A DNA stretch of 18,330 bases from Chlamydiales bacterium (lineage in GTDB: Bacteria > Chlamydiota > Chlamydiia > Chlamydiales > JBDQID01). The stretch lies in NCBI GenBank assembly GCA_047611865.1, contig JBLFWS010000058.1, positions 1 to 18,330 of the forward strand, in the 5' to 3' direction. Position numbers: made by a program. This document shows positions 9,001 through 18,000 of this stretch, one piece after another. Positions within the stretch are counted from its first letter, which is position 1. Each line of letters opens with the position of its first letter.

Positions 9001-12000
9001 CCAGCATAGCGACGCAAATGTTACAAAGCATTGTAGCATTACCCGTAGAGGAAATCGAAGAAGTTGCCTAACAATTTAAATCTTAACATATAGGTGACAA
9101 GATGACTTTAGAAGGACCTAACAGTTTCAGCGCAAAAAACACGTACCTGCAATCAGTAGAAAAATCCAATGCAGCAAGTAGCTCGTCAGATAAAACCCTT
9201 GAAGGTGTTACACAAGGCCAAATAGCAAAAATGAAAGCCCAGTATGAAAAGAGCTGTGAAGAAGTAAAAGGTATAAAAAAAATCCTTGCCGGACGTTTTA
9301 AATCCTTCGGACAAGTTCATGCTCGCTGGGAAAACCCCAAATACTGGGAAGGCATGCAAGCAATCCGCGGACTCGTAGAAGGCGACAAAGAAGTGCCCAC
9401 TAAAATCTTATTCTGGGAAGCCTGGCCGCTGAAATTCAAGTTCAAAATATTTGGCAATCCCCTAGTCATGAAATTCGACAACCCCCGAGACGAAATAAAA
9501 GCTAAACTGAAAAATGCTTTAAAGGATCCTGCTTTAGATGATGACTTAAAGCTGCTCGTAATCCTTACCCTGGAGAAATTTGATACCCCAGAAGAAGATG
9601 AGGTATTAGAAAACCTCATCACCATGAACGAAGAGATACACCCAACAAAGCCCGTTAAAACAGTAGCAGAAGTCCCCCCGGAAGCTACTCCCGATGATGT
9701 AGAAATTGCAATAATAGATGAAACTCCCCCTCCATCAGAGCCGTCCGTTTCCGTCCTAACAAAAGCTATCGCTCAGAAACGCTGTATCCTGGATATCCTG
9801 GCAGAAAACCCCATCAGTGGCGGTGGCCCAAATGCAGGTCACAAGCTCGCCATGAAAGAGCGTAACAGAGTGCTCTCCAGAAGCAAGGGCATCTCCATAA
9901 CCCACTACGAAACCCCCAATCAGGTAAAAACATTTTTCCAAAACTTTCTGAAACGCATTAACATAGCACCCGTTGATGACAAAGATAAAATCGAGTGGTC
10001 CGAAACATATATGAGAAACAGAATCTGATACTAACAGACTCAGCACATCAATATCGGATCGTGATTGCCCCATAGGTTCGTTAAGACCTATGGGGTTCCA
10101 CCCAAAACCCCGGCAAAGGGCCAGCCCTCTGCACTCCCCTTTAGTGTCCGAACACTTGGAGGCGCTGTTAATTTAAGCATATCTTTTCTCTGCACTCGAG
10201 GAACTCCGTTCCTCTCGCAAGGCAGTCAGCACCATTGTACCAATGATACTGAATCGCTCCCACCTCCGGTGGTGTGACGGTACCTGTCACAATAGTGATC
10301 GAGGAAATAATCATTAGAACTTAAGAGAAGTGTACCAACTTTTTCTTGTATTCGTATTCTGACAGGTATCGTCACACCACCGGAGGTGGAACTATTCAGT
10401 GCAATTGGAACAATTGCGCTGACTGCTTGGCGAGAGGAACGAAGTTCATCGAGTGCTGAAGAAAAGATATGTTTAAAACAGGGACGCCTCAGGTTTTCGG
10501 ACACTAAAGGGGAGTGCAGAGGGCTGGCCCTTTTCTGGGGTTTGGGGCGAAGCCCCTCTCTTTTACAATCCCAGGGAAGAATCATTTTCCTTGTAGGCAT
10601 TGAGGTCTTCTGCTGTATCGATTTCCAGCCACCCTCCATTGATGAGGACGGCTTTTAGGGGGCAGACCTTTTCTAGAATCATCTGAAAAAAGCTTGTCAT
10701 ATACATGTTTTGAAAGGATTTACCATCGTACTCTTTGCTTTGGTCTAGGCTCTCATAGAAGTCATGTACCACTCCGAGCATGTCTTTGGATATCTTGATA
10801 AGGCCAATATACTGGCCTTCAATTTCCTCAAGGGATCCGGGTTTTTTCCCGAGCTCTAGTATTTCATTATTCTCGTTTAGCTTTAGAGTCTCGACATCTG
10901 CTAAGGGATTATCCATGCGATACTCCCACAACTTCTGCCATCCCTTGTCGATAACTAGAGATATCGGACTTGTATCAGAGACAATTTTCTGTAGAACTGC
11001 CGGTGTATAAATGATATCGCTATAGGAGATAATCAGGTCGTCATCAAACTCCTGCGATGCACAAAAAAGAGAGTGCACCATATTTGTCTGTAGGTAGTCA
11101 TCATTGGAATAAAAGGTGATAGGTCTATTTGACAGGTACTCTCTTAGAACATTTTTCTGATATCCATCCACTACAGAAACCTTGTGGATACCGCAAGAAT
11201 CCATTGTGGCAAGAATATGATCGATGATGGGCTTTTCACGAAATTCCACCATACATTTGGGTTTATCATCTGTCAGAGCATCAAGCCTTGACCCACGACC
11301 TGCAGCTAGAAGAATAGCTTTCATAATAAAAACAACTCCTTTCTGCTTGCGACAAAAAAAGGATTCCTAATGTTTTCCTTACCGTAGAGGAGCTCCTCCT
11401 GGGTCGTTACTGCAATGACTTTACATAAAGCTTCTGTCGCTATAATGTCTCCTGCAGCAATATCCCATTCACTAGAACCTACCATCCTTGGATAGACATC
11501 TACCGAGCCTTCAGCAAGTTTACATAATTTTAAACTAGATCCATATGATTGAAAGTTTGAGATCGAATGCTTTGAAAGAAACGCCAGAGTCTCTTCGGTT
11601 TCATGAAAACGACTAGTCGCTGCTATTAGATCTGTACGTTCAGAGCGATTTTCTATCCGCGTCCCATCTTTATAGGCTCCCTTATCCTTTTCTGCCCAAT
11701 ACATGATGTCACACGCTGGTTGATAAATAACTCCCATCACGGGTCTATGATTTTCAATCAATGCTATGTTAACGGTAAATTCACTATTTTTTGCTATAAA
11801 GTCCTTGGTTCCGTCCAAAGGGTCTACCAACCAAAAAGTCTTCCAGTCTTTTCTATCCACGAAATCAATAAACGACTCCTCTGTAAGAATAGGAAAAGAG
11901 CTGACCTCCCTTAATCCCTCGATAATGCATGTATTGGCGCGAGTATCCGCTCTTGTTAAGGGGGATTTGTCAGCTTTAATCTCCACGGAGAAATCATCAC

Positions 12001-15000: not shown

Positions 15001-18000
15001 AAACGATATAGAGGTAAAACCTTTGCCTTTGTAATCTTCAGAGCAACTTTTTCTAATGTACCAGCTTTACTTTCAAACTGGAGATTTACATCATCTCCCT
15101 TTCCTAAAACTTCTTCCTTAAAGTGTGCTATAATCCTGTTTACCGCAACTTCAGGACTAATCCCTCCATAATTATCGATAATCAAATCCGGTCTGAGGGG
15201 CTCTTCAGCAATTATATCGATACCATATACGTTCCCAATTTTACCTTCCGATGCTTCGCTATATAAATTTTTCTGGTCTCTATCCTTCAAAATAGAATGA
15301 GGAACCTTCAGAAAAATTTCTCGGTAGCAAGAAATGTTTTTTCTATTCCACTCATGCACCGAGTGAAACAACGAAATCGTTGCACATATGACATCAAAGC
15401 CCTGATCGGAAAGAAGCTTACAAAGCCTTGAGTTTTGCATAGCTCCCTGCTTTCTCTCCTCTTCAGAATATCCAAGATTAGGCCATACTCCTCTTAACTC
15501 ATCACCATCAAGCAAAGTGACAACACGACCTTTTCCTTTAAGATGATTGAGGAGTATTTTGCTTATAGAGGATTTTCCAGCTCCAGCCAGTCCAGTAACC
15601 CAGTAAACAGTACCAGACTGTAGATTCCCTTGAAGGTCTTTTATCACGGCTATGCTCTCAGGTAAATTCCTTAACCTTTTTATCTAAGCAATACTTATGC
15701 CATTCGCATAAACCTTGCAATATATCGCTGTTAATGAAGAAGCAATGACGTCAATTTAGACAGTTATTTAAAATCTATCGGATTAAAGAGAGAATGATTT
15801 TCTGAACTATCTAATTTAAATAAATCGAGATGTCAGACATTACCGTAGAAAAATTATTTCTTACTGGGATCGTAAAGGAGCTGAACATAATTATTTTGAG
15901 GGACTCTAGGTTTAGAGAGATTCTTTTTTACATAGTCACTACATTTAGAGTGATCCTCGAGAAAATAATAAAATATTCTCCGAGCAATTCGAAACTTCTG
16001 ATTGAGGCTTTTCTCCTTACGATTAGATTTTGTCCCTCTAGGTCTTGCCAAAATGTCTTTCAATTTTTTCAGCCAAACTTTTCTCTGCATCCGGAAAGGC
16101 AAAAACACTGTCGATCTAGCAACCAATCGTTTCATTAGATTTGTTCCATAGATATCCTTTATAGGATAGCCCCACGCCTTATAGGCATGGTACAAAATGG
16201 TTTTCAAGCGTATCTTGTCGTACCAAGTTAAATGCTCTTTATGCTTACGGGAAATGATAGATTTGTCAAAGCCACTGACGATTTTATCCGTTGATGTGAA
16301 GTTCCACAGTTTCCCACCAAAAGTACTTTCCAGAAGATTGTCATGCCATGAAATCTTCATCCATTGAATCAAAGCTTCCATAACCTCTTTTGGTTTAAGC
16401 TTTAAATCTTCAAGCCTAATGGCCCGTGAGGTCGCACTGCAAGGGGCAAAGATTGGCCCCCCGAACTCACAACTTTTAGAAAGCATTCTATAAAATGCGT
16501 CATGACAACCTTTTTCCTCTTTACTCGTTACCGCGTACCAACTTGTCCAGCCCTGGATTGGGTTTCTTACCATGTGTATAAACTGTATCTCCTCGAAATG
16601 ACCCACCATAAATTTCCCAAAATACGCTGCCGGTATATGCTGGGAGAAAGCAATAACTGGGTTTCTCGTCTCTAAACGTTGTCCTATACATTCGGCGAAA
16701 GCCAGGTGGATAGCCCTGAAAAACAAATCACAGGGAACTCCCTCTAAATGAAAAGACTGAATTCTATACGAAAGAAAATGAATCAAAGCATCGCGAAAAT
16801 GATTCCGATCAATAGTCAGAATTTCATCTTGATTTTCCCCCATCTTATGTAGTGAAAAGTGTGATTCCAAATGCTCGGGGTCAAAGAGGCCCCTATAGAC
16901 TTTAAAGAATTCATCGATGACAAAATTCGCAGGCTTACCCTTCACTTCCTCAAAGAACGATGAGTACGACATAATCATGCCACTGGGGAAAGTTATCACC
17001 TCAGGATGATTGTCTAAGAGGCTGGCAAAAAAATAACTCCCGGCTCGTCCATAATGAACAATGGATAGCACTTTCTTAATATTGTATGGATCTATATCGT
17101 TTAAAGGCTTGAACGAATGACTAGACCCTTCCATTAACTCGTTTCCTTCTTTTCGATTTTTATTGTACTTTGAATTGAAGATTCCCTAATTTCTAAATGA
17201 TCAAATATCCAAGACTCCTCACTTCTTAATTTTTGCTGCCCATATCCTTGTAGTATAAGGTATTGATAGATCCTCTGAGCATTCCCGGTAAAGCATTTCC
17301 TTTATATCCCCAATGATTGCATTAAATTTCCCTCCTGCCTGACGCTCTAATGTTGCATGAGAACACCATGCTTCCAGACAATCAGCCACTGACTGAAAGT
17401 GGATCACCATTCCTTCCATTTTGACAGCTTCTTCAAAAAGACCCATTTTTTTGATTATATCACTTTGATCTTCCCGACGAACTCCATAATGATAATCTCG
17501 TAAATGCTTGGAGATAATTTTTTCAATGCTAGCTTGAATGGGATCCTTTAAGTCACGGTGATTCCACATACAGGCAAACCACCCCTTCCTTTTAAGAATC
17601 CTGGCAGTCTCTTTTAAAGCTTTTTCCCGATCTGTTACATTAAAAGATGAACCAAAGGTCACTAGATCATAGTTCTTTGAGTTTTTGCCAGTCTCTTCCC
17701 CACTACCAGCAGACCAGTTTACAGTACTATAACTAGACGTTTGCTCGATTCCCAACCTCCTCATCTCATCATTGGGTTCGACGGCATCAACATAGAAATT
17801 CTTTTTGAGCAAGGGGATCGTAAGGTGCCCAACACCCGCACCTACATCACAGACCCGTGCCCCCTCTGTAGTGCCTACTAGCTCAATAAGTTGATCGATA
17901 GCTGTTTCTGCATATTGAGGTCGCTTTAAATAGCTCATCGCAAGCTTTGTATAATCCCAATTTGTCTTCATCGCTGTGCTCTCTTTATTTATTTTTTTCT

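What a model noticed while it worked through the whole genome (the two positions that open the first line are those of the whole stretch)
10563..17971. Operon for an activated phosphoramidate donor (MeOPN-like pathway) with a fused kinase and CysQ
Six co-directional genes match the pathway that Campylobacter uses to make 3'-phospho-cytidine diphosphoramidate for O-methyl phosphoramidate decoration of sugars. Here the glutamine-kinase-like enzyme is fused to the APS-kinase-like enzyme, and a CysQ-type 3'-phosphatase is included. The organism probably decorates a surface glycan with phosphoramidate.
Evidence so far: From Pfam and NCBIfam: C58_8 is APS_kinase plus PRK05849 (962 bits, cut-off 501). 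C58_7 is gamma-glutamyl-CDP-amidate hydrolase-like (164 bits). C58_6 is CysQ (248 bits, cut-off 229). C58_5 is a nucleotidyltransferase and C58_10 a methyltransferase. Atlas clusters show the kinase fused to APS-kinase, C26-peptidase or cytidylyltransferase domains, and an unfused Campylobacterota cluster. The kinase family passes its cut-off in 6 of 150 genomes of the order. A review says such sugars are known only from Campylobacter.
(Added by a program. Inside this text positions count along the whole contig: contig position 1 is position 1 of the stretch shown here. "Call 12" and the like, gene names such as g00115 and contig names such as C1 are that model's own, and its searches are not shown. 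The text may have been shortened before it was handed on; [...] marks where a part breaks off. The agent that wrote the report below was given it as the finding of a first reader that could run no searches.)

Follow-up and report, generated by a model that had tools for sequence, protein, structure and literature searches.

The report
Phosphoramidate operon with sulfotransferase-like partner
A chlamydia-like bacterium carries a six-gene operon that very probably builds a cytidine look-alike of the sulfate donor PAPS carrying a phosphorus-nitrogen group, together with a sulfotransferase-shaped enzyme that probably attaches that group and a phosphatase that would clear the by-product; this chemistry has so far been shown only in Campylobacter.

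Summary
Six co-directional minus-strand genes (17971 to 10563) encode a methyltransferase, C58_9, an APS-kinase-like::glutamine-kinase fusion, a C26 hydrolase, CysQ and a nucleotidyltransferase. All family scores were reproduced.

The APS-kinase-like domain belongs to a subfamily (PRK05541) that passes its cut-off in 7 of 400 genomes of the phylum, always beside the glutamine kinase. The genome has a separate canonical PAPS synthase-phosphatase-sulfotransferase module elsewhere.

Five related genomes carry the cassette, four of them with sulfotransferase-fold genes in it, but show no ATP sulfurylase or canonical APS kinase.

Among 80 metagenome cassettes, 25 have a sulfotransferase-like neighbour, 8 a TagF-like one and 8 an embedded CysQ.

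Best reading (about 0.55): the operon makes 3'-phospho-CDP-amidate, C58_9 transfers the phosphoramidyl group, and CysQ clears pCp. The donor pathway alone is about 0.85 likely. The acceptor is unknown.

The fusion and the cassette are widespread. This scan has already reported the cassette with a sulfotransferase-fold partner on other DNA several times. The embedded CysQ and the test for missing sulfate activation are new here.

The parts
17219..17971 (-). SAM-dependent methyltransferase (250 aa), first gene of the operon and a core cassette gene. It probably O-methylates the phosphoramidate; the timing of that step is unknown.
   Evidence: Pfam Ubie_methyltran 42.9 bits and Methyltransf_11 40.9 bits. 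SAM motif DVGAGVG at residue 42. It is 52-57% identical to methyltransferases that sit between the APS-kinase-like gene and the glutamine kinase in metagenome cassettes. A methyltransferase is present in 52 of 80 such loci.
15854..17134 (-). C58_9, a sulfotransferase-fold protein (426 aa) and the candidate (methyl)phosphoramidyl transferase.
15108..15647 (-). N-terminal APS-kinase-like domain of the fused protein (about residues 1-180), read as a Cj1415-type cytidine diphosphoramidate 3'-kinase.
   Evidence: NF004041/PRK05541 167.1 bits (cut-off 127). Canonical apsK TIGR00455 scores 109.6 bits, below its cut-off of 138.7. PRK05541 is over cut-off in 7 of 400 phylum genomes, each time next to the glutamine kinase. 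A second, canonical APS kinase domain (196.6 bits on PF01583), fused to ATP sulfurylase, lies on contig C17.
12741..15089 (-). C-terminal L-glutamine-kinase-like part of the fused protein (residues 187-968), with PPDK_N ATP-grasp and PEP-utilizers swivelling-His domains.
   Evidence: NF004508 962.2 bits (cut-off 501). PPDK_N 54.3 bits and PEP-utilizers 50.3 bits. His924 is invariant in 36 kinases. Homologues 50-53% identical are named 'glutamine kinase' by JGI.
12061..12687 (-). C26/class-I glutamine-amidotransferase-type hydrolase (208 aa), read as gamma-glutamyl-CDP-amidate hydrolase.
   Evidence: Peptidase_C26 83.1 bits. NF045546 scores 164.5 bits, below its cut-off of 250 but 111 bits above the next family. 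Cys101 and His188/Glu190 are present. Homologues follow the kinase in 54 of 80 metagenome loci.
11321..12064 (-). CysQ-type 3'(2'),5'-bisphosphate nucleotidase (247 aa), overlapping both neighbours by 4 bases. It is read as the enzyme that turns the by-product pCp into CMP.
   Evidence: TIGR01331 248.6 bits (cut-off 228.8) and Inositol_P 168.1 bits. It is the only match in the genome over the CysQ cut-off. Its best relatives among the fetched loci are CysQ genes in the same kinase-hydrolase-CysQ-nucleotidyltransferase order: L076 48%, L047 43%, L093 42% and L016 42%. 8 of 80 metagenome cassettes have an embedded IMPase-family gene.
10563..11324 (-). Nucleotidyltransferase (253 aa), read as CTP:phosphoglutamine cytidylyltransferase.
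   Evidence: NTP_transf_3 53.9 bits. G9RGSR motif. The nearest solved relative is the CTP:phosphocholine cytidylyltransferase 1jyk, E 2.1e-12. Homologues at 33-55% identity follow the hydrolase in related loci.

Best explanation
The six genes form one self-contained module that mimics the PAPS cycle with a phosphorus-nitrogen group in place of sulfate.

Inferred by homology to the Campylobacter enzymes, not shown here:
1. [quoted passage not shown]
2. The nucleotidyltransferase joins phosphoglutamine to CTP to give CDP-L-glutamine.
3. The C26 hydrolase releases glutamate and leaves cytidine diphosphoramidate.
4. The N-terminal APS-kinase-like domain phosphorylates the 3'-hydroxyl to give 3'-phospho-cytidine-5'-diphosphoramidate, a cytidine analogue of PAPS.

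Inferred from fold, motifs and gene neighbourhood:
5. The sulfotransferase-fold protein C58_9 binds this donor through its 5'-phosphate and 3'-phosphate binding loops. It transfers the phosphoramidyl group to a hydroxyl of an unknown acceptor and releases cytidine 3',5'-bisphosphate (pCp).
6. The operon's own CysQ hydrolyses pCp to CMP, as CysQ does for PAP.
7. The methyltransferase adds the O-methyl group, before or after transfer.

Confidence is about 0.85 for steps 1-4 and about 0.55 for steps 5-6. The value given is for the whole statement.
For: Donor pathway:
- All four enzyme types are present with intact catalytic motifs.
- NF004508 scores 962 bits against a cut-off of 501.
- JGI names close homologues 'glutamine kinase'.
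- A Raushel-group paper states that Cj1415-Cj1418 make CDP-phosphoramidate 3'-phosphate from glutamine, ATP and CTP (PMC11800397, passages read).

The 3'-kinase is not a sulfate-pathway enzyme:
- It passes PRK05541 (167 bits against 127) but fails canonical apsK (109.6 against 138.7).
- PRK05541 passes its cut-off in 7 of 400 phylum genomes, always within about 2.5 kb of the glutamine kinase.
- The other 47 genomes with a match at E<=1e-10 are all below the cut-off; most of those matches lie in frames of about 560-630 aa.
- The window's genome has its own canonical PAPS synthase (PUA_2, ATP-sulfurylase, APS kinase; 568 aa). It is followed by an IMPase-family phosphatase and a Sulfotransfer_1 gene on contig C17. 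That is the same logic of donor synthesis, phosphatase and transferase in a second copy.

C58_9 has a sulfotransferase fold with the nucleotide-binding motifs kept.

Association of sulfotransferase-fold genes with the cassette:
- They lie inside or beside the cassette in 5 of the 6 other phylum loci that have the 3'-kinase gene (L014, L015, L017, L018, L019).
- 9 of the 17 PF00685 matches in five such genomes lie on the cassette contig near the cassette, in genomes of 1.6-2.4 Mb.
- 25 of 80 metagenome cassettes have a sulfotransferase-like neighbour. 22 of those 25 proteins were confirmed by Pfam.
- Direct C58_9 homologues (E 2e-36 to 7e-20) sit in at least 12 of them.

Discriminating test: genomes G357, G085, G071, G056 and G210 (87-97% complete) carry the cassette. 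Four of them (all but G210, see the Against line) have sulfotransferase-fold genes in or beside it.
- 0 of 5 have ATP sulfurylase PF01747.
- 0 of 5 have CysD.
- None has an APS-kinase match other than the cassette's.
They therefore show no way to make PAPS.

No Campylobacter-type transferase family (NF058596) was found in G000 or in those five genomes.

CysQ:
- It is translationally coupled to both neighbours.
- 8 of 80 metagenome cassettes and L016 have an IMPase/CysQ gene directly beside a cassette gene. Three show the identical kinase-hydrolase-CysQ-nucleotidyltransferase order.
- By my rough estimate, chance would give fewer than one among the 900 ORFs of those loci.
Against: - The window's own genome can make PAPS and has at least nine other sulfotransferase-domain matches. 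C58_9 could simply be a sulfotransferase, with CysQ clearing PAP.
- C58_9 keeps every PAPS-binding motif, and nothing in the sequence shows a preference for cytidine.
- The 3'-kinase does not imply a sulfotransferase-fold user. TagF-like (Glyphos_transf) genes sit beside the 3'-kinase and methyltransferase in 8 of 80 metagenome loci (7 of 8 confirmed by Pfam).
- 55 of 80 loci show no recognisable sulfotransferase-like neighbour, though many contigs are short. None of the 86 further flanking proteins I scanned (of 150 selected) matched a sulfotransferase family.
- L016 (G210) has the 3'-kinase and CysQ but no sulfotransferase gene in the 14.5 kb held; the cassette abuts the contig end.
- Chlamydiae live in eukaryotic cells and might import host PAPS, which would weaken the test for missing sulfate activation.
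- The hydrolase is below its curated cut-off (164.5 against 250).
- One of the 14 control genomes also passes PRK05541, so that model is not perfectly specific.
- The NF058596 searches had no positive control.
- No acceptor or glycan gene lies in the window.
- No biochemical work shows phosphoramidyl transfer by any sulfotransferase-fold enzyme. My two literature searches found none.
- The contig's assignment to this genome rests on binning and typical composition only.
Confidence: 0.55

Rival explanations
1. Mixed cluster. The four donor genes and the methyltransferase make the phosphoramidate donor. C58_9 is an ordinary PAPS-dependent sulfotransferase, and CysQ is the ordinary PAP phosphatase that serves it. 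The enzyme that transfers the phosphoramidate is elsewhere or not yet recognisable.
For: The genome has a canonical PAPS synthase and many other sulfotransferase-domain genes. C58_9 keeps the 5'-PSB and 3'-PB motifs of true sulfotransferases, and its nearest solved relatives all use PAPS. CysQ passes the curated CysQ equivalog cut-off. TagF-like proteins accompany the 3'-kinase in 8 of 80 loci, so another fold can be the partner.
Against: - The canonical PAPS synthase already has its own phosphatase and sulfotransferase next to it on contig C17.
- C58_9 and CysQ are embedded in the phosphoramidate operon, and CysQ overlaps both neighbours by 4 bases.
- Relatives with the cassette and cassette-embedded sulfotransferase-fold genes show no ATP sulfurylase, CysD or canonical APS kinase (0 of 5).
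- C58_9 homologues recur inside cassettes of unrelated metagenome organisms.
- No Campylobacter-type transferase was found in the genome (no positive control).
Confidence: 0.25
2. The module does not decorate a glycan at all. It tailors a small molecule, lipid or protein, for example tyrosine or serine O-phosphoramidylation. The nearest solved folds of C58_9 act on an acyl-carrier-bound polyketide (CurM, OLS) or on protein tyrosine (TPST). This differs from the best explanation only in the acceptor.
Against: In several relatives the cassette sits among sugar-modifying genes. Examples are RmlD-like, DegT aminotransferases, epimerases, glycosyltransferases and a Wzx-like flippase in L002, L014-L016 and L020. 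The only experimentally known products of this pathway are sugars of Campylobacter capsules (PMC3907429 and PMC6429109, passages read). Ranking by fold similarity says little about the acceptor.
Confidence: 0.2
3. The large protein is a PEP-synthase or rifampicin-phosphotransferase-like enzyme acting on another substrate, and the cluster is ordinary sulfur or nucleotide metabolism that has been mis-read.
For: The domains are shared with PEP synthase and related dikinases (PPDK_N, PEP-utilizers). Some public records name homologues 'phosphoenolpyruvate synthase' or 'adenylyl-sulfate kinase'.
Against: NF004508 scores 962 bits, while the best PEP synthase model scores 48.8 bits against a cut-off of 945. 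The protein is constantly linked with the C26 hydrolase and the nucleotidyltransferase (54 of 80 loci each). A separate canonical sulfate-activation locus exists.
Confidence: 0.03

Closest known systems
Campylobacter jejuni O-methyl phosphoramidate (MeOPN) capsule pathway: Cj1418 L-glutamine kinase, Cj1416 cytidylyltransferase, Cj1417 hydrolase, Cj1415 CDP-amidate 3'-kinase, Cj1419/Cj1420 methyltransferase-like genes, and the genetically defined transferases Cj1421/Cj1422
   Same: The same four enzyme families for the donor, with a methyltransferase alongside. The expected product is the same, 3'-phospho-CDP-amidate, named as the likely donor in PMC11800397.
   Different: - The two kinases are fused here.
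- A CysQ is embedded.
- The candidate transferase has a sulfotransferase fold.
- No match to NF058596 (CJJ1420_fam) was found in the genome (no positive control). An earlier scan note ties that family to Cj1421/Cj1422.
- No capsule genes are nearby.
- The organism is chlamydia-like.
- I could not fetch the Campylobacter proteins themselves, so all comparisons are through family models.
- Even in Campylobacter the transfer step had not been reconstituted as of August 2025 (PMC12409886, conclusions read).
The PAPS cycle: ATP sulfurylase/APS kinase, PAPS-dependent sulfotransferase, and CysQ (PAP phosphatase)
   Same: The same three protein folds do the last three steps: APS-kinase fold, sulfotransferase fold and CysQ. 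The logic is also the same: a 3'-phosphorylated nucleotide donor, group transfer, then removal of the nucleoside 3',5'-bisphosphate. A real copy of this cycle lies on contig C17 of the same genome.
   Different: The group carried would be phosphoramidate on cytidine, not sulfate on adenosine. The kinase domain belongs to a separate subfamily that fails the canonical apsK cut-off. The donor's precursor is made from glutamine, CTP and ATP rather than from sulfate.
CurM and olefin-synthase sulfotransferase domains (4gbm, 4gox) and tyrosylprotein sulfotransferases TPST1/2 (3ap1, 5wri)
   Different: Sequence identity is 13-15%. C58_9 has about 100 extra C-terminal helical residues. Those enzymes use PAPS. 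Whether C58_9 does is the open question.
Kinase-free variant of the cassette with a TagF-like (CDP-glycerol glycerophosphotransferase-like) partner
   Same: The same glutamine kinase, hydrolase and nucleotidyltransferase core. It is seen in two genomes of the same phylum (L020, L021).
   Different: There the nucleotidyltransferase, not the 3'-kinase, is fused to the glutamine kinase. No 3'-kinase, methyltransferase or sulfotransferase-fold gene was seen in those loci. In metagenome loci, however, TagF-like genes also occur together with the 3'-kinase (8 of 80).
Predicted MeOPN-like cluster of Cobalt Borg (bioRxiv 10.1101/2024.11.05.622173)
   Same: An in-silico prediction of glutamine kinase, cytidylyltransferase and hydrolase outside Campylobacter (passages read).
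   Different: It is an archaeal extrachromosomal element. The passages I read mention no 3'-kinase, CysQ or sulfotransferase-fold partner.

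Membership tests
Campylobacter-type phosphoramidate donor pathway (Cj1418/1416/1417/1415) | L-glutamine kinase: PEP-utilizer-type enzyme matching NF004508 over its cut-off, with the swivelling catalytic histidine | tested here: met
   962.2 bits against a cut-off of 501. His924 is invariant in 36 kinases. That NF004508 is the Cj1418 family rests on JGI names of close homologues and on recall.
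Campylobacter-type phosphoramidate donor pathway (Cj1418/1416/1417/1415) | gamma-glutamyl-CDP-amidate hydrolase (NF045546 equivalog) | tested here: inconclusive
   164.5 bits is below the curated cut-off of 250, so it does not qualify as an equivalog. It is still the best family by 111 bits, the Cys-His-Glu triad is intact, and the position after the kinase is conserved.
Campylobacter-type phosphoramidate donor pathway (Cj1418/1416/1417/1415) | CTP:phosphoglutamine cytidylyltransferase | tested here: inconclusive
   Only the general fold is shown (NTP_transf_3 53.9 bits, GxGSR loop; the nearest solved relative is the LicC cytidylyltransferase 1jyk). No family model specific for Cj1416 gave a hit. 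Synteny is conserved in 54 of 80 loci.
Campylobacter-type phosphoramidate donor pathway (Cj1418/1416/1417/1415) | APS-kinase-like 3'-kinase distinct from sulfate-pathway APS kinase | tested here: met
   PRK05541 scores 167.1 bits against 127. Canonical TIGR00455 scores 109.6 bits, below 138.7. PRK05541 is over cut-off in 7 of 400 genomes, all beside the glutamine kinase. The substrate was not tested.
Campylobacter-type phosphoramidate donor pathway (Cj1418/1416/1417/1415) | Campylobacter-type MeOPN transferase (NF058596, CJJ1420_fam) | tested here: not met
   No match at E<=0.01 in G000 (95.5% complete) or in five related cassette genomes. No positive control rang, so the negative is weak.
Campylobacter-type phosphoramidate donor pathway (Cj1418/1416/1417/1415) | Product is 3'-phospho-cytidine-5'-diphosphoramidate, and a (methyl)phosphoramidate ends up on an acceptor | not testable with these tools
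   This needs enzymology or 31P NMR.
Sulfotransferase superfamily (Sulfotransfer_1/_3 fold) | Sulfotransferase fold | tested here: met
Sulfotransferase superfamily (Sulfotransfer_1/_3 fold) | 5'-phosphate (PSB) loop and 3'-phosphate (R...S) motif | tested here: met
   G29-R-A-G-S33 and R190-N-P-x5-S198. R190 is invariant, and G29, R30, G32 and S198 are at least 90% conserved in 50 sequences. They align to RSGS and VRHPYSVIES of CurM ST. The names and roles of the motifs are recalled.
Sulfotransferase superfamily (Sulfotransfer_1/_3 fold) | Uses PAPS and transfers sulfate | not testable with these tools
   Only indirect evidence is available. Relatives with cassette-embedded sulfotransferase-fold genes show no sulfate-activation genes.
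CysQ 3'(2'),5'-bisphosphate nucleotidase | TIGR01331 equivalog score and IMPase metal-binding motifs | tested here: met
   248.6 bits against 228.8. DPLDGT at 81 and WDIAA at 200. Substrate preference (pCp or pAp) was not tested.

The most novel reading that the evidence does not exclude
The sulfotransferase fold has been recruited for transfer of a phosphorus-nitrogen group. C58_9 and its many cassette-linked relatives would be (methyl)phosphoramidyl transferases that use 3'-phospho-CDP-amidate. A dedicated CysQ would recycle pCp, giving a complete cytidine and phosphoramidate mimic of the PAPS cycle. In chlamydiae that cannot activate sulfate, this would be the only job of their 'sulfotransferases'. 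The target need not be a glycan; it could be a protein or a lipid.
Probability: 0.5. Interest if true: 0.8.

Novelty: new variant of a known kind. Interest (0 to 1): 0.62.

Why it matters
Sugars carrying O-methyl phosphoramidate are reported only from Campylobacter (review PMC6429109, passage read). The enzyme chemistry of the transfer step was still open in 2025 (PMC12409886).

This operon belongs to a very large and widespread cassette family. It offers a concrete, cloneable hypothesis for that missing step: a sulfotransferase-fold enzyme using a PAPS-like cytidine donor, with a CysQ to clear pCp.

If true, it would add a new reaction class to a well-studied fold. It would also mean that P-N modification of cell components is common in bacteria, including environmental chlamydiae.

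There is a practical warning for annotation too. Four of the six genes would normally be labelled as sulfur metabolism or as PEP synthase.

Tried and rejected
- Promoter and terminator scans gave fewer sites than shuffles (15 against 19.8; 4 against 5.7), so they say nothing about transcript ends.
- Rfam found nothing in the window.
- Four primary Raushel papers were not held.
- The single-protein scan of genome contigs gave only one useful locus.
- From the phylum loci I considered a strict rule: a 3'-kinase goes with a sulfotransferase-fold partner, and no kinase goes with a TagF-like partner. I rejected it because 8 of 80 metagenome loci combine the 3'-kinase with a TagF-like gene.
- Recent horizontal transfer or mis-binning is not supported by composition. 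GC is 0.420 against 0.415 for the genome, the tetranucleotide distance ranks 67 of 157 contigs, and the operon half lies near the median of 7.5-kb chunks.
- Anchoring the contig to the phylum through its plus-strand genes failed, with 0 of 40 relatives matching.
- A regular expression for the 5'-phosphate loop found nothing in the other cassette sulfotransferases. An alignment replaced it. The alignment shows the loop arginine kept in 9 of 13 family members and the 3'-motif arginine kept in 13 of 13.
- The kinase tree is only the quick version. The window's kinase groups with P0157 and P0158, apart from the other chlamydial kinases and from a 15-member clade of fused kinases. The deciding branches are below 95% support, so I draw no conclusion about origin.
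- The searches for NF058596 had no positive control.

Full report
**The observation**

The window is the whole 18,330-base contig C58 of a 3.59-Mb, 272-contig genome bin (95.5% complete, 2.5% contamination).
- 17219-17971 (250 aa)
- 15854-17134 (426 aa, C58_9)
- 12741-15647 (968 aa)
- 12061-12687 (208 aa)
- 11321-12064 (247 aa)
- 10563-11324 (253 aa)

The last three overlap by four bases each. The other gaps are 53, 206 and 84 bases.

- APS_kinase 106 bits on residues 12-158 of the 968-aa protein.
- PRK05849/NF004508 962.2 bits (cut-off 501) on residues 187-966.
- The hydrolase model NF045546 at 164.5 bits, below its cut-off of 250.
- CysQ TIGR01331 at 248.6 bits (cut-off 228.8).
- A MobA-like nucleotidyltransferase and a class-I methyltransferase.

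The catalytic motifs I know for these folds are all present (their meaning is recalled).

**What C58_9 is**

It has a sub-threshold Sulfotransfer_3 hit (E 6.3e-4, 20.5 bits against 27).
- A search of 1.84 billion representatives found 1255 relatives at E<=0.001.
- Of 50 aligned relatives, 49 match PF13469.
- The AlphaFold model built on that alignment is confident (pLDDT 91.5, pTM 0.90).
- Foldseek's best PDB matches are all sulfotransferases (4gbm at E 1.4e-6).
- A profile of the family finds CurM ST at E 3.3e-16 in the PDB sequences.
- The ESM Atlas neighbours are Sulfotransfer_3 clusters.

The loop G29-R-A-G-S33 and the pair R190/S198 (VRNPIQGWTS) align with the 5'-phosphate and 3'-phosphate binding motifs of CurM ST and are conserved in the family. 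C58_9 is therefore built to hold a nucleoside 3'-phosphate 5'-phospho-X donor.

**The kinase domain**

The N-terminal domain passes the subfamily model PRK05541 (167 bits against 127) but fails the canonical apsK model (109.6 against 138.7).

In an even sample of 400 scored genomes of the phylum:
- The glutamine-kinase family passes its cut-off in 9 genomes.
- PRK05541 passes in 7. All 7 also have the glutamine kinase, and in each the match lies within about 2.5 kb of it.
- The other 47 genomes with a match at E<=1e-10 score below the cut-off. Most of those matches lie in frames of about 560-630 aa, the size of ATP-sulfurylase fusions.
- One of the 14 control genomes also passes, so the model is not perfectly specific.

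The window's genome has such a canonical enzyme on contig C17: a 568-aa protein with PUA_2, ATP-sulfurylase and APS kinase domains (192.8 bits on PF01583). It is followed by an IMPase-family phosphatase (333 aa) and a Sulfotransfer_1 protein (293 aa). The genome thus holds two parallel modules of the same design, one for sulfate and one, in the window, tied to the glutamine kinase.

**Relatives in the phylum**

The phylum sample looks like Chlamydiota. It holds many genomes of about 1.1 Mb in one or two contigs. A same-order relative's locus carries the CT_584-like and UPF0137 families. Earlier notes of this scan call this genome an uncultured marine chlamydia; I did not check that.

I fetched up to 20 kb around the kinase in the nine other genomes with a kinase match at E<=1e-50, eight of them over the cut-off.
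- Six loci have a separate 3'-kinase gene and a methyltransferase in the order 3'-kinase, methyltransferase, kinase, hydrolase, nucleotidyltransferase.
- In five of these six (L014, L015, L017, L018, L019), eight sulfotransferase-domain genes lie inside or beside the cassette.
- The sixth (L016) has a CysQ and abuts a contig end.
- Two loci (L020, L021) have the nucleotidyltransferase fused to the kinase. They have no 3'-kinase, no methyltransferase, and a TagF-like gene instead.
- The ninth locus (L013, G396, below the cut-off) is a 1.8-kb contig that holds only the kinase's end, the hydrolase and the start of the nucleotidyltransferase.
- In five cassette genomes of 1.6-2.4 Mb, 9 of the 17 PF00685 matches lie on the cassette contig near the cassette.

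**A discriminating test**

Can those organisms make PAPS? In G357, G085, G071, G056 and G210 (87-97% complete) I found:
- no ATP sulfurylase (0 of 5);
- no CysD (0 of 5);
- no APS-kinase match other than the cassette's.

Four of them (not G210, as far as held) have sulfotransferase-fold genes in the cassette, and those proteins have no visible source of PAPS. They do have, next door, the genes for a PAPS-shaped cytidine donor. The caveats are incomplete genomes and possible import of host PAPS by intracellular bacteria. For the window's own genome the test does not apply, because PAPS synthesis is present.

**A wider sample**

A scan of metagenome contigs with an alignment of 36 kinases gave 727 confirmed relatives, of which the best 80 loci were kept. 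The sample leans towards loci that also match the query's 3'-kinase domain.

With phmmer seeds (E<=1e-4) the loci carry:

| Gene type | Loci of 80 |
|---|---|
| kinase | 80 |
| 3'-kinase | 66 |
| hydrolase | 54 |
| nucleotidyltransferase | 54 |
| methyltransferase | 52 |
| sulfotransferase-like | 25 |
| IMPase/CysQ | 8 |
| TagF-like | 8 |

Many contigs are short. Pfam confirmed 22 of 25 sulfotransferase-like, 8 of 8 IMPase and 7 of 8 TagF-like proteins. None of the 86 further flanking proteins scanned (of 150 selected) matched a sulfotransferase family.

Direct homologues of C58_9 (E 2e-36 to 7e-20) lie in at least 12 of these cassettes. All eight TagF-like genes accompany a 3'-kinase, so the 3'-phosphate does not by itself demand a sulfotransferase-fold user. 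I had entertained that rule from the phylum loci and I drop it.

**CysQ**

All eight IMPase-family genes in the metagenome loci lie directly beside a cassette gene. Three (L047, L076, L093) show the window's order of kinase, hydrolase, CysQ, nucleotidyltransferase, and they are the window CysQ's best relatives there (43, 48 and 42% identity). L016 is 42% identical.

By my rough estimate, fewer than one such gene would be expected by chance among the 900 ORFs of those loci. A nucleoside-bisphosphate phosphatase makes sense in this operon only if a 3',5'-bisphosphate nucleotide is produced. That is what transfer from a 3'-phosphorylated donor predicts, whichever fold does the transfer.

An earlier-notes look-up for 'phosphoramidate' together with 'CysQ' returned nothing, so this link appears not to have been noted in the scan before.

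**How common, and where from**

The kinase family is very large. Most of the 120 best hits carry the APS-kinase domain, so the fusion is common. A pair of proteins 81% and 80% identical to C58_9 and to the fusion each come from a single 5.4-kb contig, which is consistent with the same adjacency in a close relative.

Full-length members of the C58_9 family were found in 1 of 400 phylum genomes, the window's own (422.9 bits; next best 53.7).

In a quick tree the window's kinase groups with P0157 and P0158. It stands apart from the other chlamydial kinases and from a 15-member clade of fused kinases, but the deciding branches are below 95% support.

The contig's composition is typical of the genome. 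Its three plus-strand genes have no homologue in 40 relatives. Assignment of the contig to this organism therefore rests on binning and composition.

**Literature**

- PMC11800397 (passages) states that Cj1415-Cj1418 make CDP-phosphoramidate 3'-phosphate, the likely donor. It also states that Cj1421 and Cj1422 knockouts lose MeOPN, and that Cj1419 and Cj1420 have no assigned function.
- PMC3907429 (passages) describes the transferase genes genetically.
- PMC6429109 (passages) says such sugars have so far only been identified in Campylobacter.
- PMC12409886 (abstract, introduction and conclusions passages) shows the decoration enzymology was still to be worked out in August 2025.
- The Borg preprint predicts three pathway enzymes in an archaeal element.
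- Searches for phosphoramidate with sulfotransferase and Campylobacter found 3 irrelevant papers. 'MeOPN transferase' with sulfotransferase found 0 papers. Neither turned up a published link between the sulfotransferase fold and phosphoramidate transfer.
- The primary enzymology papers were not held.
- The NCBIfam family named after CJJ81176_1420 (NF058596) has no match in the genome or in five relatives, though without a positive control.

**Earlier notes of this scan**

The scan has reported the same cassette with a sulfotransferase-fold partner on other DNA many times, and also the kinase-free TagF-like variant. I reached the sulfotransferase reading from my own calls (18-34) before looking. 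I count those notes as agreement, not as evidence. Four things are added here: the chlamydial setting, the parallel canonical sulfation module in the same genome, the test for missing sulfate activation, and the recurrent embedded CysQ.

**Verdict**

The donor-pathway reading is well supported (about 0.85). The reading that C58_9 is the phosphoramidyl transferase and that CysQ clears pCp is the best available but unproven (about 0.55). Its main rival is an ordinary sulfotransferase with CysQ riding in the same operon (about 0.25). The acceptor is unknown. I class it as a new variant of a known kind of system and rate its interest as moderate to high.

Noticed in passing
window 488-10028 (+): Three co-directional plus-strand ORFs of 562, 2293 and 308 aa converge on the operon. 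They match no Pfam or NCBIfam family above threshold. The 2293-aa and 308-aa proteins have no homologue in 40 related genomes. The first 200 residues of the 2293-aa protein have a 36% identical paralogue on contig C82 of the same genome.
   Followed up: partly
L029 9693-13371 (G000 contig C17, about 18.7-22.4 kb): A canonical sulfation module: PUA_2, ATP-sulfurylase and APS kinase in one 568-aa protein, then an IMPase-family phosphatase (333 aa), then a Sulfotransfer_1 protein (293 aa), all co-directional. An ankyrin-repeat protein and an epimerase follow on the other strand.
   Followed up: yes
window 18137-18203: A 26-nt inverted repeat (88% complementary, 15-nt loop) lies about 165 nt upstream of the methyltransferase start. 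On the minus strand it folds at -41.5 kcal/mol (z -8.2 against shuffles). There is no U-run after it and no Rfam match. It could be the end of an upstream transcript or a leader element.
   Followed up: partly
L020 8198-11308 and L021 1523-4657: In two genomes of the same phylum the glutamine kinase is fused at its N-terminus to a nucleotidyltransferase (1036 and 1044 aa) instead of the 3'-kinase. A TagF-like gene lies nearby, and no 3'-kinase or methyltransferase was seen.
   Followed up: partly
G071 contig C4, about 25.8-29.7 kb (not fetched): A second cluster of four Sulfotransfer_1 matches lies away from the cassette in a genome where no ATP sulfurylase, CysD or canonical APS kinase was found.
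   Followed up: no
window 10226-10639 (-): A 137-aa ORF overlaps the 3' end of the nucleotidyltransferase gene by 77 bases. It matches no family and may not be a gene.
   Followed up: no
L061 5925-9293: In one metagenome locus the cassette directly follows the flagellar genes flgK and a flagellin, which hints at a flagellar glycan or protein as the target there.
   Followed up: no
G000 contig C1, about 24.5-32.5 kb (not fetched): Three open frames of about 810-818 aa each carry a Sulfotransfer_1 match in tandem. An earlier scan note describes them as fusions of a sulfotransferase and a glycosyltransferase.
   Followed up: no
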